In this document: positions 9,009 through 52,560 of the stretch, piece after piece
Layout: each line of letters opens with the position of its first letter
Position numbering within the stretch: position 1 is the first letter of the stretch
NCBI GenBank assembly: GCA_000165345.1
Contig: CM000436.1
Location: 544,001-608,000, forward strand
Reading direction: 5' to 3'
DNA length: 64,000 nt
Program-made: the position numbers and the translations under genes
The notes under the pieces: model-generated
The model's database searches: none
What the model saw: the letters and a program-made list of their open reading frames with translations, nothing else
Told to the model about the DNA's origin: nothing

Positions 9009-9066
9009 TATACCGGTGTCTGCAAATTTTGCAAATGCATGCATGCAATTACATGACGTGGCGACC
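9009..9066. promoter_or_regulatory. Composite element TATACCGG-GTCTGCAAATTTTGCA-TGCATGCATGCA-GACGTGGCGACC in the BTB/RRP5 divergent promoter. Further boxes GTGGCGCGC and TGGCGGGCAA lie at 9251-9276
   Basis: tataccggtgtctgcaaattttgcaaatgcatgcatgcaattacatgacgtggcgaccag. Confidence 0.55.
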
Positions 9067-28067: not shown

Positions 28068-29547
28068 TTTGAAAGTATTAATCAAGTATAACCGTAACAA
28101 TAATAAAATATTAATATAATAAAAGGAAAACAGAGAAAGAGTTTATTAATGTATTTCTTTTTCTTCTATATATTGTTGGGATAATAATTGAATAATAATG
28201 ACCAGTTTTAAAAGGAAATATAATTATAAATTGAAATGAATTTCACTATTTAAAGTAATGCCAAGTTTTGAGAGTTTAATAATTAAGGTAAAATATATAC
28301 CTTAATTATTCCCCTATATAGGCCATGCAAGTTCTGGGAATATTAATACAAAACAATTTTTATGATGAAATTATATATTATTAACCAAAAAATTACAGTT
28401 AAAGCTTTCAAGAACAACTAGGAATAGTAATTCTCTTGGAAGTCCAGTAAATGCTATTCCATCAAATGATGAGGTTTTTTTATATTAAAAAAAGTATAAA
28501 ATAATAAAAATCAATTTTGGGTAAGATTGATTTTTTCCTTTTTTTTTTCTCACTATAATTTGACAGGAAAATTTCAATATTTTTGACTTGTCAAAAATAT
28601 GTACTAGTAAAAAATACTGCAAAAATATTTCTTAATGATGTCAAATTATCATATTATTAATTCAAATTAAGTAATTTAAAGGCCTATTTAATTAGAGACA
28701 ATTCAAAATAAATAATTTGGGGGTGGCGCGCTTTAACAAGCTATTATTAATATTTCTATTAATAAATAATTGTAACAAGAGGAGTTGGTCTAGGCGGGTC
28801 AATTTATAATATTTATAATTTATATTGAAATATAAATGAAGTTAATATAATTAGAAGAAGTAATCAAATAAATAATAATAAAATTAGTATTTTTGATGGA
28901 TAAATAAGATGATAAAAAGAAGAGAAGAAAAAGAATGTATTTAAGGGAATGGAAAAATATTATTAAATAATTGAGGATAATATTTGAGGTCTAAATATAT
29001 ATATTTATCAAGTTGGATTAAATCAAGTATATATTTCTCATATATTATATATACATACTTTACTTTTACTTTTTCTTTTTATTAAAAGCAAATTATGAAA
29101 TAAATTAATTAAAATCAAAATGGGACTATAGTTCAAAACTTTTGGTAATATAGTTAAATTTTGGGTCTTAATTAATAAATAAGGAATTAACAAGAGATTA
29201 TTTATTGATATTATTTTTAATTATCAAATTTAATTATCAAATAACATGTATGCATGCATGCAAAAAGGTATTATATATTATGGACCAAAAATAAATTAAT
29301 GGACAGTTTTGGCGGTAAACTGATGAATTAAAAAGTAAAAATATAAGGTAATTTTAAATATTAAAGGGAGTAAAGAGATTAAAAGATATAATAATAGTAA
29401 AAGTAATTGTATTAATTTTTCTCCTTTTAGAGGGATAGATTACGGATAAGAGGAATACTTGGTGACTATAAATAAAGTTTTGAAAAGTTTTCTTCAAGTT
29501 AATAAATAAAAAGGAAAAGAACATATTTTGGGATTATTTGTACAATA

Positions 29548-48471: not shown

Positions 48472-51327
48472 ATGGAGAAAATTATTTATTTATTATTAAT
48501 ATCAATAAACTGGTTGGTAGGAAATGCTATTTCACAGTTAATTGTGTCAGAACAAGAAATGTGTATGAATGGACAATGCAAAAAAATGTTGAACGGTCAT
48601 TTAGTTATACAGAATAATCAGGTAGGCTTATTTTTTTTTAGTAAAATAATAATTGAAAATTAAATATTTTGAAATTAATTAATTTTATAGGATGTATCGT
48701 TGAATTTTGGATCATCAGAAGTAAATGGAAAGAATGCAAAAGAAGCAGACCCAGGTTCTAATGGATTTAAGATTACAATAAAGAAGTCTCCAATATTAAT
48801 TGCATATGATTTGAGTTATATTTCAACTTTATATCATGATTTTCAAGAAGATATAAAATTGTTTTCGTTTACTCAAGTTGAAGGTGACCCATCTAGATTT
48901 TGTAATCATGAATTGAGAAGTTGTCAGAAAGTGAGAGACGAGTATTTATATGGAACACCAAATTGTAAGTTTTAATAAATTATTTTGAATTTAGCAATAT
49001 CTTAATAAAACATATTTAAAATGATTTATAGTGCCACCAGGTCAAAAAAATTGGACTCAAGAAACTCCAATACCACCTGGATCACAAGGATCGTGTTGTT
49101 GGTGTCCAGAATTATATGTAACGGTAAGTTCAATTGAATTAAAGTGCTGGAGGAGGGGCTTTTTATTAGGGATTAAGGTTTTTTATATTAGAGAAATTAA
49201 TGACATATTTACTCCCAATTAAATAATTTTTTTTTTTAGATAAATACTGATGCACCATTTTCAAGAGCTACATTACATTGTTCATGGATACGTAAGTTTA
49301 ATATATTACAAATGGAAATAATTTATTGAACTATTTTAAACTATTTATAGAGCAAAGAATGTGGTGGAATGTTTACTTATCGAAGTCATGCCCAGTTTGG
49401 ATACCACCATGGTGGACAGCTTTTAGAATAGGTGGATGGAACTGGCAATACTCATTAGAGGTTGAATTATCTTGGTTTAGTCCAACAGAATCATCAATTA
49501 ATAAGTTATCAAGTACAGAATTGGAAAATATGGAAAATGAATGTAAGAAAGAAAATAAGGATTCCACAATAGATTGTTCAAGATTAAGGCATAAAGAATC
49601 AGGAATTCAGACTTCTGTACATACATTAAATTCATCGTCTCCATCATTCTATGATCCAAATTTTGGAGCTTCAGTACAGGTAATAAGCTCAGGACCACCG
49701 TTTGGGAGTGCTAATGCAAAGGATTTGAATGGTTATTACATGTTACAACCAACATTTTCACCAAAAGGGATGCCTGCTAGTATTTCAATTCCTCCTTTAA
49801 GAAGTGGGTGTGGAAAAGCTTCAAAAAACCAAACAGAAGAGGAAATAAATGATTGTTTAAAGCCAACATTAATTATTCCTCCAGAAAATGCAGACTTTAC
49901 AGGAGTTTCATGTGATAAGATAGGAACAAGTGTTCATACTTGGAGTTCTGTGAACGGTAGATTTTGCTATCATCCACCTGGTACTTGTCAAAGAGCTCAG
50001 ATAGCTCACTTTTATAAGAAAGTTATAGAAGATCATTCACTTGGAAAGATTTCACAATATTCAGTAAGAGCACAAAATTCTGGTTCTCCACAGTTGATTT
50101 TGGATTCATTAGGAGAAATTGGTCATGAGGAGATGGATCAAAATGATATGGGAAATATAACTAATATACAATCACGCAGATTCTTTTTGGGATATAATTT
50201 TGATTCAATCTTTGACACAGAAATAATGTTCTCAGTCGAAGCTTCTTCTGTGTCTTGGGTAGCAACATCTTCTCCTGGAATTATTACATTTATAGAACCA
50301 CCACCTTTGGAGGCTTGCACAGCAATGAGTAGTTTTGGCTGTCCTCTAAAGGTTTATATTAAGAATAGTGGTAAGTTTGAATATATATATATATACATTT
50401 CGAATTGAATTGAAAATAACTTAACAAAAATATTCTATAGGGGATATTGATTCAGGTTTTGTAGTTCAAATACCTTATTGTACAAAGTCAGGAGTACAAA
50501 CAAGTGAGGTAGGTTTGTATTTAATTCATTCAAATTTATATAATTAATTAATTTAGGTTGATCCAATAATGGCACAAACAAAGAAGATTAAAGCCAATTC
50601 AATAGGAATTTTTACTTTTGTATTGGGAGTTTCCGTATTAACTGGGAGTGAATATAAGTGCGTGGTAAGTATATATATATTTAATGCATCCAATATATGC
50701 ATGCATACAATAAATGCATGCATGCAATATATTGGTAAACACTATTAAATAACAATATTAAATATTATTTCTATTCAAATAATAGGTTGTGTTGTATAAT
50801 TCATTTTCAGTTCAACTGGATCAGAATATGTTCACTTTTTCAACAACTTCTACAACGGTAAGTTTATTTGAAAGAAGATATCGTTTTTGAATCTTAATAT
50901 TAATTATTAATATAAATATTTTGATATCAAATTGAAAATTTAAGATTTCAATTGCAAGTTCAGATTCAATAATTTCTGATGTAGTAGTGAATCAAACTTC
51001 GTTAACAAACAAAAAGTTTGATTCTATGTTTACAGGAAATAAATGTATTTCTTGTGGATTAAATTTTTGGTGTTTAATAGCAAATAGTAAGTTAAAAATG
51101 AATCATTCTTTTAAAATTTAAAATAATTAAAATAAATTTCAGTTAAAGATTGTATTATGTTAGGTATTAAATGTATAGGGATAATACTTGGATTGATAAT
51201 AGGATTTGTTATATTATTAAAGTTGATAAAGATAATACTTGAACTACGTAAAAATAAGAAAATTGAAACAAGGATAATTAATAATAGCCAAGAAAGTTTA
51301 AGTCAAGGTATTAATAGGAAGAATTGA
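48472..51327 (+). CDS. 10-exon gene encoding a 717-aa signal-peptide / single-TM cysteine-containing surface protein; candidate HAP2/GCS1-like gamete fusogen
   Basis: Exons: 48472-48621, 48691-48964, 49041-49123, 49240-49291, 49351-50370, 50441-50508, 50557-50664, 50786-50857, 50945-51086, 51143-51327. Donors are GTAAGT/GTAGGT and acceptors are tag/cag after T-rich tracts. Total exon length is 2154 nt, a multiple of 3. Signal peptide MEKIIYLLLISINWLVGNAIS. The ectodomain has conserved-looking Cys motifs (SCCWCPELY, FTGVSCDKIGTSVHTWSSVNGRFCYHPPGTCQRAQ). TM IGIILGLIIGFVILL is followed by a basic tail RKNKKIETR. The HAP2 assignment is from memory of the family architecture, not a search. Confidence 0.5.
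50690..50735. other. Near-palindromic GCATGC-rich element inside intron 7 of the 10-exon gene
   Basis: ccaatatatgcatgcatacaataaatgcatgcatgcaatatattgg. The arms CCAATATATGCATGCA and TGCATGCAATATATTGG are nearly reverse-complementary. Confidence 0.5.
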
Positions 51328-51506
51328 TTTGAATTGAAGTAAAACAAACAAAACAAAAGAAGCAATGAAAGTATATTAAAAGTTAATTAATATGGGCCTA
51401 GCTGAAAAAATTATTATTAATAATTTTGCCAGTATTTTTATCAATATGAATAGTAATGACTCCAAGATTTGGTAATTGCCATAATACAGATCCTAATAAG
51501 TGGAAA

Positions 51507-52560
51507 TTAATTGATTAATTTAATTAAAGTTGAAATAATCAGAATTTCAATAAAAATACCTTTTAAAAGCCTTTTCAAGAAGTAATAATGGGATACCAAT
51601 ACGATTTCATTATTTTCAAGATCTTGATAATTCTTGATAAAATTAATAAATTGTTGAATTCTTTGATCCACTTGTTCATGATCTTCTGGAAGTACAATAT
51701 AATCTTTAAAGTTGGTGTCAGGAAGAAATGATATATCAGCTTTTGGGTAATTTTTGATAATTTCTTCCTTAGATAAACAAGGAACATCTGATATATATAG
51801 AGCTTTTTCTCTAACAAAATCCAATACACAAATTTTGCAATTTTCAGAAGATCTTTTTGAAATCAAATTTGAAGTTTCCATGGCTCTTCTTAAGTTGGAA
51901 GTAATAATCAAAGAAGCTCTTTCCATTATTGGTTTTCCTTTATATGTTGGCTAATTCAGAAATGTTTCAGGAAAAAAAAGTACAATTATTATAGAAAGAT
52001 ATTAAGTAAAGTTATTATTGGTTTAAAATATATGACCATATAATTGTCACTTACACCACCATTATCACCAAAATTATTCGCTTTTTCAACTCCATACTTG
52101 GATAAAGGAGCATCCAAAATACCTAAAGATTTAAAGAGTCATGTAATATATATTTATTGGTATTTTTATTTAATAAGTTTATTCCTGTTTAGTTAGTCTA
52201 TTATAATCCATTCAAATGTATTAATTAGATTGGATTATACTATTCTATTATAATAGGAAATGAACTTAATAACTTACCTGGATCTTTACTAGATAATAAT
52301 TCGTGTATATTCAAGGTTTTAATATTATGGTTTCTTAAGGCATTCATGGTACTTTCAGCATGTCGTATACAATGTACGGTGACAATATTCTTATATTTGG
52401 TTATTGGTTGGTTAGTTATAGCAGTATTGAATTGTTTCTCGCATTTTGTTTGGTTATTTGTAATTTTCCCAAATAGAGGAATGGCTATTTTTTTAAAGTC
52501 CAAGTTTTTGTTATTTTTTTGGAAAACAAATTTTTTCAAGATTGTTTTAACTTGAAGCAT
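51507..52560 (-). CDS. Histidine phosphatase (phosphoglycerate mutase-like) family protein, 3-exon model
   Basis: Minus-strand exons 52560-52278, 52122-52055 and 51950-51507. Donors are GTAAGT, seen as acttac on the plus strand at 52272-52277 and 52049-52054. Acceptors are ctttag and aattag. Total length is 795 nt, a multiple of 3. RHAES (VHCIRHAESTMN) is the catalytic His motif. Exon 2 reads ILDAPLSKYGVEKANNFG. Exon 3 has RRAMETS and the C-terminal IVLVSH His. Confidence 0.65.

What the first reader, a model, noticed from the sequence alone, without database searches (positions are those of the whole stretch)
48472..51327. Ten-exon gene in an intron-poor genome encodes a HAP2/GCS1-like single-pass surface protein (gamete fusogen candidate)
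The ORF track shows only fragments (48472-48663, 48700-48975, 49031-49222, 49326-50408). Every fragment ends at a GTAAGT/GTAGGT donor, and each is followed by a T-rich tract ending in AG. Joining ten exons gives a 2154-nt, 717-codon frame with no internal stops. The encoded protein has an N-terminal signal peptide and a large Cys-containing ectodomain (SCCWCPELY; VSCDKIGTSVHTWSSVNGRFCYHPPGTCQRAQ). It ends in one TM helix and a short basic tail. This is the topology of HAP2/GCS1, the class-II-like fusogen of male gametes, which in Cryptosporidium is used as a male-gamete marker. The promoter carries an unusual motif cluster (27-nt palindrome, E2F half-site, GCATGCATGC, CACCGGTATA), and intron 7 holds a GCATGC near-palindrome. 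If confirmed, this is the locus of sexual-stage fusion machinery. If it is not HAP2, it is still a highly spliced, undescribed surface protein.
Basis: partly seen in the sequence, partly recalled or inferred. Interest (0 to 1): 0.65.

Follow-up and report, generated by a model that had tools for sequence, protein, structure and literature searches.

The report
Cryptosporidium parvum HAP2 gamete-fusion gene

Summary
Window 48472-51327 (+) contains ten exons joined by nine GT..AG introns. The product is identical to GenBank QOY39979.1, "Male gamete fusion factor", of C. parvum IOWA-ATCC chromosome 8, and the window matches that record base for base over 22.9 kb.

The protein matches Pfam HAP2-GCS1 over almost the whole profile (E 2.5e-42, 145.6 bits against a cut-off of 27.4). 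An AlphaFold model (pLDDT 77.5) finds solved HAP2 ectodomains first (Foldseek E 1e-33 to 1e-27), then other class II fusogens. All nine introns sit at the same positions in six Cryptosporidium species.

Published work already names this gene cgd8_2220/HAP2. The tagged protein is seen only at one pole of male gametes. Its promoter is used as a male driver, and one of its introns is used as a splicing cassette.

The "unusual" upstream motifs are mostly generic Cryptosporidium elements (TGCATGCA, E2F-like). They lie outside the 339-bp fragment that worked as a male promoter.

Verdict: interpretation supported, already known, low interest. Minor leftovers are inconsistent gene models in other assemblies and a conserved CCACAC...GTGTGG inverted repeat in the proximal promoter.

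The parts
48472..48621 (+). Exon 1 (150 nt, codons 1-50). Carries the start ATG and the N-terminal hydrophobic signal-peptide-like segment (residues about 1-25, 48472-48546).
   Evidence: The residues QLIVSEQ.MCMNGQC upstream of the internal Met30 are conserved in C. canis and C. felis, which supports this ATG over the one used in the 691-aa models.
48691..48964 (+). Exon 2 (274 nt)
   Evidence: The length is identical in C. canis, C. felis and C. serpentis, with GT/AG at the same aligned columns.
49032..49123 (+). Exon 3 (92 nt). Encodes the SQGSCCWC motif (residues 159-166).
49240..49291 (+). Exon 4 (52 nt). Encodes the conserved Arg181 and Cys186 and the start of the putative fusion loop.
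49351..50370 (+). Exon 5 (1020 nt), the large exon that made up the original 349-aa cgd8_2220 model. It includes the classical HAP2 signature G-VSCDKIG...FC...G.C (residues 374-403, 49902-49991).
   Evidence: Its length in other species differs only by multiples of 3.
50441..50508 (+). Exon 6 (68 nt)
50557..50664 (+). Exon 7 (108 nt)
50786..50857 (+). Exon 8 (72 nt)
50945..51086 (+). Exon 9 (142 nt), the membrane-proximal Cys-rich stem (C646, C649, C655).
51143..51327 (+). Exon 10 (185 nt including the stop). Holds the transmembrane helix (residues about 666-692, 51160-51240) and the 28-residue basic cytoplasmic tail.
   Evidence: helix 660-712 in the model.
49106..49388 (+). Coding stretch (interrupted by introns 3 and 4) for residues 167-202, between the conserved Cys166/Arg181/Cys186/Cys203. 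It aligns with the two fusion loops at the domain II tip of Chlamydomonas HAP2. The second segment, SWIQQRMWWNVYLSKS, is rich in Trp and other hydrophobic residues.
   Evidence: Profile alignment to 6e18/5mf1, a 14-sequence alignment, and low-to-medium pLDDT with a short helix at 188-192. The assignment as fusion loops is an inference.
48133..48471 (+). The 339 bp upstream of the ATG. This is the length of fragment used in the literature as a male-specific HAP2 promoter.
   Evidence: PMC12323322. The coordinates are derived by counting back from the ATG at 48472.
48316..48359 (+). Inverted repeat CCACAC-N32-GTGTGG, 156 to 113 nt upstream of the ATG. It overlaps one of two TGACCACA boxes (48313-48320; the other is at 48000-48007).
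   Evidence: It is unique in the window. Its position relative to the ATG is conserved in C. hominis, C. meleagridis, C. canis and C. felis (CCACAT in C. felis). Its function is untested.
47912..47990 (+). It lies 108-186 nt after the stop of the upstream RCC1-repeat gene and 482-560 nt before the HAP2 ATG.
50665..50785 (+). Intron 7 (121 nt) with three TGCATGCA sites (50698, 50715, 50719).
   Evidence: Two GCATGC sites are present in C. hominis, and none in C. meleagridis, C. canis, C. felis or C. serpentis.

Best explanation
This is the Cryptosporidium parvum HAP2/GCS1 gene (cgd8_2220; QOY39979.1 in the IOWA-ATCC assembly). Nine short introns are spliced out to give a 720-residue type I membrane protein. 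It has a signal peptide, a cysteine-rich three-domain class II fusogen ectodomain, one transmembrane helix and a short basic tail. The protein is made only in male gamonts and gametes and sits at the pole of the male gamete that faces the female. By homology with Chlamydomonas, Arabidopsis and Plasmodium HAP2, it most likely works as follows. Hydrophobic loops at the tip of domain II (here most probably residues about 167-202, including SWIQQRMWWNVYL) insert into the target membrane. The protein then trimerises and folds back into a hairpin, which pulls the two membranes together and merges them at fertilisation. Shown: gene structure, family membership, fold and, from the literature, male-specific polar localisation. 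Inferred: the exact fusion loops, trimerisation, and that the protein is required for fusion in Cryptosporidium.
For: The spliced product is identical to QOY39979.1. The window is identical over 22,856 bases to CP044415.1:574042-596897, where a gene of the same span (2856 nt) is called. Pfam HAP2-GCS1 matches at E 2.5e-42 over profile positions 2-513 of 515. The ten full-length distant relatives tested from an exhaustive HMMER search (60 hits at E<=0.001) all carry PF10699 and nothing else. Hallmark residues are conserved in 13-14 of 14 aligned HAP2s: C164, C166, C186, C203, C377, C395, C402, C543, C587, C646, C655 and C663. R181 is conserved in 11 of 14. The AlphaFold model has pLDDT 77.5 and pTM 0.65. 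Its top Foldseek PDB hits are all HAP2 (6dbs, 6e18, 5ow3, 5mf1, 7s0k; E 1.3e-33 to 2.4e-27). These are followed by archaeal Fsx1, bunyavirus Gc, EFF-1 and alphavirus E1. All nine introns have GT..AG at the same aligned positions in C. hominis, C. meleagridis, C. canis, C. felis and C. serpentis. Internal exon lengths are identical or differ by multiples of 3. Introns vary freely in length and are far less conserved, at 45-66% identity against 67-88% for exons 1-9 (54-57% for the divergent last exon). Literature: HAP2-HA expressed from the native locus labels only male gamonts and gametes, at one pole, from 42 h (PMC6877471). A HAP2 intron splices out of a luciferase reporter (bioRxiv 10.1101/2024.11.22.624643). 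The introns of the IOWA-ATCC annotation are stated to be 100% RNA-seq supported (PMC8744675).
Against: No loss-of-function or fusion assay for Cryptosporidium HAP2 was found. A 2026 review still says HAP2 "may be" part of the fertilisation machinery (PMC13007382). Sequence identity to structurally solved HAP2s is only 14-17%. The alignment across the fusion-loop region is weak (about 7 bits) and the model there has pLDDT of only 52-75, so the loop assignment is tentative. I could not inspect RNA-seq reads myself. A first AlphaFold run with only five sequences failed (pLDDT 33.8).
Confidence: 0.93

Rival explanations
1. The protein is a true HAP2 homologue but in Cryptosporidium it serves mainly as an adhesin or recognition molecule at the male gamete apex. 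Another factor (for example GGC1 or an unknown protein) would then carry out membrane merger across the several membranes that separate the male from the intracellular female.
For: In culture, males attach to females by the HAP2-marked pole without fusing. How the male crosses three membranes is unknown (PMC6877471). The review lists both HAP2 and GGC1 as candidate adhesion or fusion components. No functional test exists.
Against: The full class II fusogen fold and all hallmark cysteines are retained. The segment aligned with the fusion loops is strongly hydrophobic and aromatic, and it is conserved among Cryptosporidium species. HAP2 is the fusogen wherever it has been tested (established knowledge: Chlamydomonas, Plasmodium, Arabidopsis, Tetrahymena).
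Confidence: 0.05
2. The distal motif cluster at 47912-47990 (palindrome, E2F half-site, GCATGCATGC, CACCGGTATA), perhaps together with the GCATGC cluster in intron 7, is the element that confers male-specific transcription of HAP2.
For: The order and spacing of ACACGTAAT, YACCGGTA and GACCACAT are kept in the otherwise very diverged C. canis intergenic region. Promoter-only fluorescent reporters for HAP2 failed in one study, which leaves room for elements outside the fragment used.
Against: TGCATGCA (20 sites against 0.48 expected, all outside long open frames) and TTCCCGCC (5 against 0.17) are general intergenic motifs in this window, and both are known over-represented C. parvum motifs. AP2 factors with AP2_1-like specificity include asexual and female-specific ones. 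The cluster lies outside the 339-bp fragment that drove a working male-side split-Cre. The palindrome's symmetry is broken in C. hominis and C. meleagridis. The E2F half-site and GCATGC pair are absent from C. canis, and C. felis has a single GCATGC only. The intron-7 sites are absent from C. meleagridis, C. canis, C. felis and C. serpentis. The cluster is closer to the 3' end of the upstream RCC1-repeat gene than to the HAP2 ATG.
Confidence: 0.12
3. The ten-exon frame is an artefact of choosing splice sites to keep a frame open, or the locus is a decaying pseudogene.
For: Public annotations of the same locus disagree widely, at 349, 394, 593, 609, 622, 691, 713 and 720 aa.
Against: The same ten exons projected onto C. 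hominis and C. meleagridis DNA give intact 2163-nt frames. Splice sites and exon lengths are conserved in four further comparisons. The full-length product matches the HAP2 profile end to end and folds as HAP2. The C-terminally tagged protein is detected in parasites.
Confidence: 0.01

Closest known systems
Cryptosporidium parvum HAP2, cgd8_2220 (GenBank QOY39979.1, C. parvum IOWA-ATCC)
   Same: It is the same gene. The DNA is identical over 22.9 kb, the gene span is identical and the 720-aa product is identical.
   Different: Nothing differs. Other deposited models of this locus (349-713 aa) are truncated or use other splice sites.
Chlamydomonas reinhardtii HAP2 ectodomain (PDB 5mf1, 6e18, 6dbs) and Arabidopsis HAP2/GCS1 (5ow3)
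   Same: They share the class II three-domain fold (Foldseek E 1e-33 to 1e-27, target TM-score 0.69-0.78). The SQGxCCxC motif, the conserved Arg, the CDK.G...C...G.C signature and domain III all align.
   Different: Identity is only 14-17%. The loops between the conserved cysteines differ in length and sequence: Cryptosporidium has a Trp-rich SWIQQRMWWNVYL segment, and loop 1 is about 3 residues shorter. The cytoplasmic tail is very short (28 aa).
Plasmodium HAP2 (male gamete fusogen and transmission-blocking vaccine target)
   Same: It is an apicomplexan orthologue expressed on the male gamete, and antibodies to its fusion loop block fertilisation (cited in PMC6877471).
   Different: [quoted passage not shown] No functional or antibody data exist for the Cryptosporidium protein. 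I did not compare it directly with a Plasmodium sequence.
Other class II fusogens: archaeal Fsx1 (7p4l), C. elegans EFF-1 (4oje), bunyavirus Gc (6egu, 7a5a), alphavirus E1
   Same: They share the overall fold (Foldseek E 5e-14 to 1e-7).
   Different: There is no detectable sequence similarity (7-11% identity), and the Pfam HAP2 profile is specific to the HAP2 branch.

Membership tests
HAP2/GCS1 (Pfam PF10699) | Significant match to the family profile above the curated gathering score, over most of the profile | tested here: met
   E 2.5e-42, 145.6 bits against a cut-off of 27.4, profile positions 2-513 of 515, protein residues 34-660. All ten distant relatives tested reciprocally carry only PF10699.
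HAP2/GCS1 | Conserved ectodomain cysteine framework and signature motifs (SQGxCCxC, the conserved Arg before the fusion loops, CDK.G...C...G.C) | tested here: met
   C164, C166, C186, C203, C377, C395, C402, C543, C587, C646, C655 and C663 are conserved in 13-14 of 14 aligned HAP2s, and R181 in 11 of 14. The motifs align to 6e18/5mf1 and 5ow4.
HAP2/GCS1 | Type I topology: signal peptide, large ectodomain, single C-terminal transmembrane helix, cytoplasmic tail | tested here: met
   The hydropathy scan finds only two segments: residues 7-25 (mean 1.78) and about 660-696 (up to 2.89), followed by a 28-residue basic tail. The model has helices at 2-16 and 660-712. No dedicated signal-peptide predictor was available.
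Class II fusion proteins (fusexins) | Three-domain, mostly beta-strand ectodomain fold like solved HAP2, EFF-1 and viral class II proteins | tested here: met
   The AlphaFold2 model from a 44-sequence alignment has pLDDT 77.5 and pTM 0.65. The Foldseek top eight hits are all HAP2 (E 1.3e-33 to 2.4e-27), followed by Fsx1, Gc, EFF-1 and E1. An earlier five-sequence model was unusable.
HAP2/GCS1 | Expression restricted to the male (or minus) gamete | not testable with these tools
   Literature only. HAP2-HA expressed from the native locus is found exclusively in male gamonts and gametes, at one pole, from 42 h (PMC6877471). RNA peaks at 48 h (PMC7840661).
HAP2/GCS1 | Required for gamete membrane fusion; trimerises and inserts hydrophobic loops into the target membrane | not testable with these tools
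   I found no knockout or biochemical study of the Cryptosporidium protein. The review lists its function as presumed.

The most novel reading that the evidence does not exclude
The positionally conserved inverted repeat CCACAY-N(about 30)-GTGTGG (48316-48359, -156 to -113 from the ATG) lies inside the 339-bp working promoter and overlaps a TGACCACA box. It could be the so far undescribed cis-element through which a male-fate regulator (Myb-M, or a male AP2) switches on HAP2. No male-specific motif is listed in the current review of Cryptosporidium gene regulation.
Probability: 0.15. Interest if true: 0.4.

Novelty: already known. Interest (0 to 1): 0.1.

Why it matters
HAP2 is the central candidate for the fertilisation step that Cryptosporidium needs in order to make oocysts, and so it is a possible transmission-blocking target. 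All of that is already recognised. The gene is named, annotated with this exact ten-exon model, epitope-tagged and used as the standard male marker, and its promoter and an intron are used as genetic tools. This re-analysis adds three modest things. First, it gives independent comparative proof of all nine splice junctions across six species. Second, it shows that many public models of the gene are truncated (349-713 aa in C. parvum, C. hominis, C. tyzzeri and C. meleagridis), although for C. hominis and C. meleagridis, the two species whose DNA was re-projected here, the DNA supports the same 720-aa protein. Third, it gives a tentative location for the fusion loops and for a conserved proximal promoter element.

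Tried and rejected
1. A brute-force enumeration of all acceptor combinations timed out or produced unreadable output. I replaced it with the rule of taking the most upstream frame-preserving acceptor, which reproduced the deposited protein exactly.
2. The first AlphaFold run, on the five-sequence Cryptosporidium alignment, gave pLDDT 33.8 and was discarded. A 44-sequence alignment built from the exhaustive HMMER search fixed this.
3. The word-indexed protein search found only four Cryptosporidium clusters. I did not repeat it with a profile because family membership was already settled.
4. I looked for a published male-specific promoter motif and for intron statistics of C. parvum. No male motif is reported in the review. 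Table 2 of PMC8744675 is not held as text, so I give no genome-wide intron count.
5. I considered and rejected a pseudogene or artefactual frame.
6. I considered the intron-7 GCATGC cluster as a conserved regulatory element. I rejected it as a conserved feature because it occurs only in C. parvum and C. hominis.
7. I considered the 33-nt palindrome as a conserved structure. Its symmetry is broken in the closest relatives.
Full report
**What is in the sequence.** Seven are GTAAGT, intron 6 is GTAGGT, and intron 1 is GTAGGC rather than GTAGGT. I took, for each intron, the most upstream AG that keeps the frame open. That gives ten exons: 48472-48621, 48691-48964, 49032-49123, 49240-49291, 49351-50370, 50441-50508, 50557-50664, 50786-50857, 50945-51086 and 51143-51327. 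The nine introns are 48-121 nt long. The joined frame is 2163 nt, or 720 codons plus a stop. Exons are 32.6% G+C and introns 17.3%, in a window of 29.6%.

**Where the window comes from and whether the gene is annotated.** The 720-aa product is identical to GenBank QOY39979.1, "Male gamete fusion factor" of Cryptosporidium parvum. The contig that encodes it is CP044415.1, chromosome 8 of the IOWA-ATCC assembly. Window 38472-61327 is identical to positions 574042-596897 of that record at all 22,856 bases. The gene called there has the same 2856-nt span. The feature is therefore an annotated gene. It is cgd8_2220 in the older nomenclature.

**Family membership.**
- Pfam HAP2-GCS1 (PF10699) matches at E 2.5e-42, 145.6 bits against a gathering score of 27.4. 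The match runs over profile positions 2-513 of 515 and residues 34-660.
- Sequence searches of the PDB return only HAP2 chains: 5ow3, 5ow4, 5mf1 and 6e18.
- An exhaustive HMMER search of 1.84 billion representatives finds 60 relatives at E<=0.001. The ten full-length distant ones I tested all carry PF10699 and no other family.
- In a 14-sequence alignment the hallmark cysteines are conserved in 13-14 of 14 sequences: C164, C166, C186, C203, C377, C395, C402, C543, C587, C646, C655 and C663. Arg181 is conserved in 11 of 14.

**Fold.** A first AlphaFold run on five Cryptosporidium sequences failed (pLDDT 33.8). With a 44-sequence alignment the model reached pLDDT 77.5 and pTM 0.65. Foldseek against the PDB ranks HAP2 ectodomains first: 6dbs, 6e18, 5ow3, 5mf1 and 7s0k, with E 1.3e-33 to 2.4e-27 and target TM-scores of 0.69-0.78 for the first six. 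Next come archaeal Fsx1, bunyavirus Gc, EFF-1 and alphavirus E1, that is, the class II fusogen superfamily. A hydropathy scan finds only an N-terminal segment (residues 7-25) and a strong helix at about 660-696, followed by a 28-residue basic tail.

**Splice junctions.** I could not map reads, so I used comparative evidence.
- I retrieved the orthologous loci of C. canis, C. felis, C. serpentis, C. meleagridis and C. hominis.
- In all of them each of the nine introns begins with GT and ends with AG at the same aligned column.
- The internal exons have identical lengths (274, 92, 52, 68, 108, 72, 142). Exon 5 differs only by multiples of three (1020/1020/1011/1014).
- Intron lengths vary freely, and intron identity is 45-66% against 67-88% for exons 1-9; the last exon, which encodes the transmembrane helix and tail, is more diverged (54-57%).
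- Projecting the ten exons onto C. hominis and C. meleagridis DNA gives intact 2163-nt frames. Exon and intron identity are 98.7% and 92.9% for C. hominis, and 95.2% and 78.0% for C. meleagridis.

The literature adds two points. The IOWA-ATCC annotation, which holds this exact model, reports its introns as 100% RNA-seq supported (PMC8744675). A HAP2 intron placed in a luciferase gene is spliced out in parasites (bioRxiv 10.1101/2024.11.22.624643).

**Expression and function in the literature.**
- Tandel et al. 2019 (PMC6877471) identified this gene as the C. parvum HAP2 homologue and tagged it at the native locus. They saw the protein only in male gamonts and free male gametes, at one pole, from 42 h. 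Attached males point the HAP2 pole at the female.
- The gene is used as the male marker in transcriptome work (PMC7840661).
- A fragment of 339 bp upstream of the gene drives the male half of a split-Cre fertilisation reporter that switches more than 95% of oocysts (PMC12323322).
- A 2026 review lists HAP2 under "gamete fusion" but says it "may be" part of the adhesion or fertilisation machinery. I found no knockout (PMC13007382).

**How it most likely works.** By homology, the ectodomain exposes hydrophobic loops at the tip of domain II. These insert into the opposing membrane, and the protein trimerises and folds back to merge the bilayers. The profile alignment to Chlamydomonas HAP2 anchors SQGSCCWC (159-166), Arg181/Cys186 and Cys203. 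That places the two fusion-loop segments at about 167-180 and 187-202. The second segment, SWIQQRMWWNVYLSKS, is unusually aromatic. It is conserved in the Cryptosporidium species whose models include this stretch (the C. felis model skips exon 4), and the model gives it a short helix at 188-192 with only moderate confidence. This assignment is an inference. The equivalence to Chlamydomonas residues W173/F177 and F192/W193/L197/L200/I201 rests on my recollection of the published numbering.

**The "unusual promoter".**
- The motifs exist. TGCATGCA occurs 20 times in the window against 0.48 expected, always outside long open frames. TTCCCGCC occurs 5 times against 0.17 expected.
- Both are known over-represented C. 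parvum upstream motifs, AP2_1 and E2F (PMC12246861). Factors with AP2_1-like specificity include asexual and female-specific ones.
- The cluster sits 108-186 nt after the stop of the upstream RCC1-repeat gene and 482-560 nt before the HAP2 ATG. That is outside the 339-bp working promoter.
- The perfect palindrome is C. parvum-specific. C. hominis and C. meleagridis carry mismatches.
- Part of the block (ACACGTAAT, YACCGGTA, GACCACAT, with similar spacing) is kept in C. canis. Some function, for either neighbouring gene, is therefore possible.
- The GCATGC cluster in intron 7 is found only in C. parvum and C. hominis.

**A more interesting detail.** Inside the proximal promoter there is an inverted repeat, CCACAC-N32-GTGTGG (48316-48359). 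It is unique in the window. Its distance from the ATG is nearly the same in five intestinal species, with CCACAY at -145 to -156 and GTGTGG at -113 to -118. It overlaps one of two TGACCACA boxes (4 in the window against 0.95 expected). Tandel et al. reported that promoter-only fluorescent reporters for HAP2 failed, so the cis-requirements are not fully understood. This is a lead, not a finding.

**Intron-rich in an intron-poor genome.** Of the ten complete genes called in the 22.9 kb around HAP2, eight have spans equal to their coding length, so they have no introns. The exceptions are HAP2 (nine introns) and its convergent neighbour, a histidine-phosphatase-family gene at 51398-52560 on the minus strand. 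For that gene a unique three-intron solution reproduces the annotated 278 aa. The genus is described as having undergone extensive intron loss (PMC8744675). The contrast is real, but it is a property of an already annotated gene.

**Verdict.** The gene, its exon structure, its family, its expression and its use as a tool are all already in the public record. Novelty: already known. Interest: low (0.1).

Noticed in passing
window 51398-52560 (-): The convergent downstream neighbour, a His_Phos_1 (histidine phosphatase family) gene, also has introns. A unique three-intron solution (52123-52277, 51951-52054, 51493-51559; the last donor is GTATTT) gives the annotated 278 aa. Its stop codon lies only 70 nt from the HAP2 stop, so the 3' ends of the two transcripts probably overlap or abut. 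The C. hominis and C. felis annotations split this gene into two short genes.
   Followed up: partly
window 48472-51327; loci L002-L006: Public gene models of HAP2 disagree. They are 349 aa (Iowa II XP_627125, exon 5 only), 394, 593, 609 and 622 aa (C. hominis, C. tyzzeri and C. sp. 43IA8), 691 aa (C. meleagridis and one C. parvum model, which start at Met30 and lack the signal peptide) and 713 aa (alternative acceptors for introns 5 and 9). The C. felis model appears to retain intron 1 and skip exon 4. The C. canis model reads into intron 2 and drops DIDSG. The DNA of C. hominis and C. meleagridis supports the same 720-aa, ten-exon protein.
   Followed up: yes
window 48316-48359 and 48000-48007, 48313-48320: The inverted repeat CCACAC-N32-GTGTGG and two TGACCACA boxes lie upstream of HAP2. 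The repeat is unique in the 64-kb window, and its distance from the ATG is conserved in five intestinal Cryptosporidium species. It is a candidate male-specific cis-element and has not been tested.
   Followed up: partly
whole window (20 sites, e.g. 9036-9047, 29251-29262, 41650-41731, 47958-47969, 50698-50726): TGCATGCA occurs 20 times against 0.48 expected, and every site lies outside open frames of 120 codons or more. This fits its known status as a general Cryptosporidium intergenic (AP2_1) motif. The three sites in HAP2 intron 7 are the only ones I placed inside a gene. The TTCCCGCC E2F-like half-site occurs 5 times against 0.17 expected.
   Followed up: partly
window 47912-47944: A perfect 33-nt palindrome, TTTAATTACACGTAAT-A-ATTACGTGTAATTAAA, lies 108 nt downstream of the RCC1-repeat gene stop. 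It is perfect only in C. parvum, with two mismatches in C. hominis and one in C. meleagridis. The half-site ACACGTAAT is kept in C. canis.
   Followed up: partly
window 38472-61327 (= L001) and L002-L006: Gene order is conserved: actin-like, RCC1-repeat, HAP2, His_Phos (opposite strand), XRN 5'-3' exonuclease. This order holds in C. parvum, C. hominis, C. meleagridis and C. canis. C. felis and C. serpentis appear the same where their called genes carry Pfam hits.
   Followed up: partly
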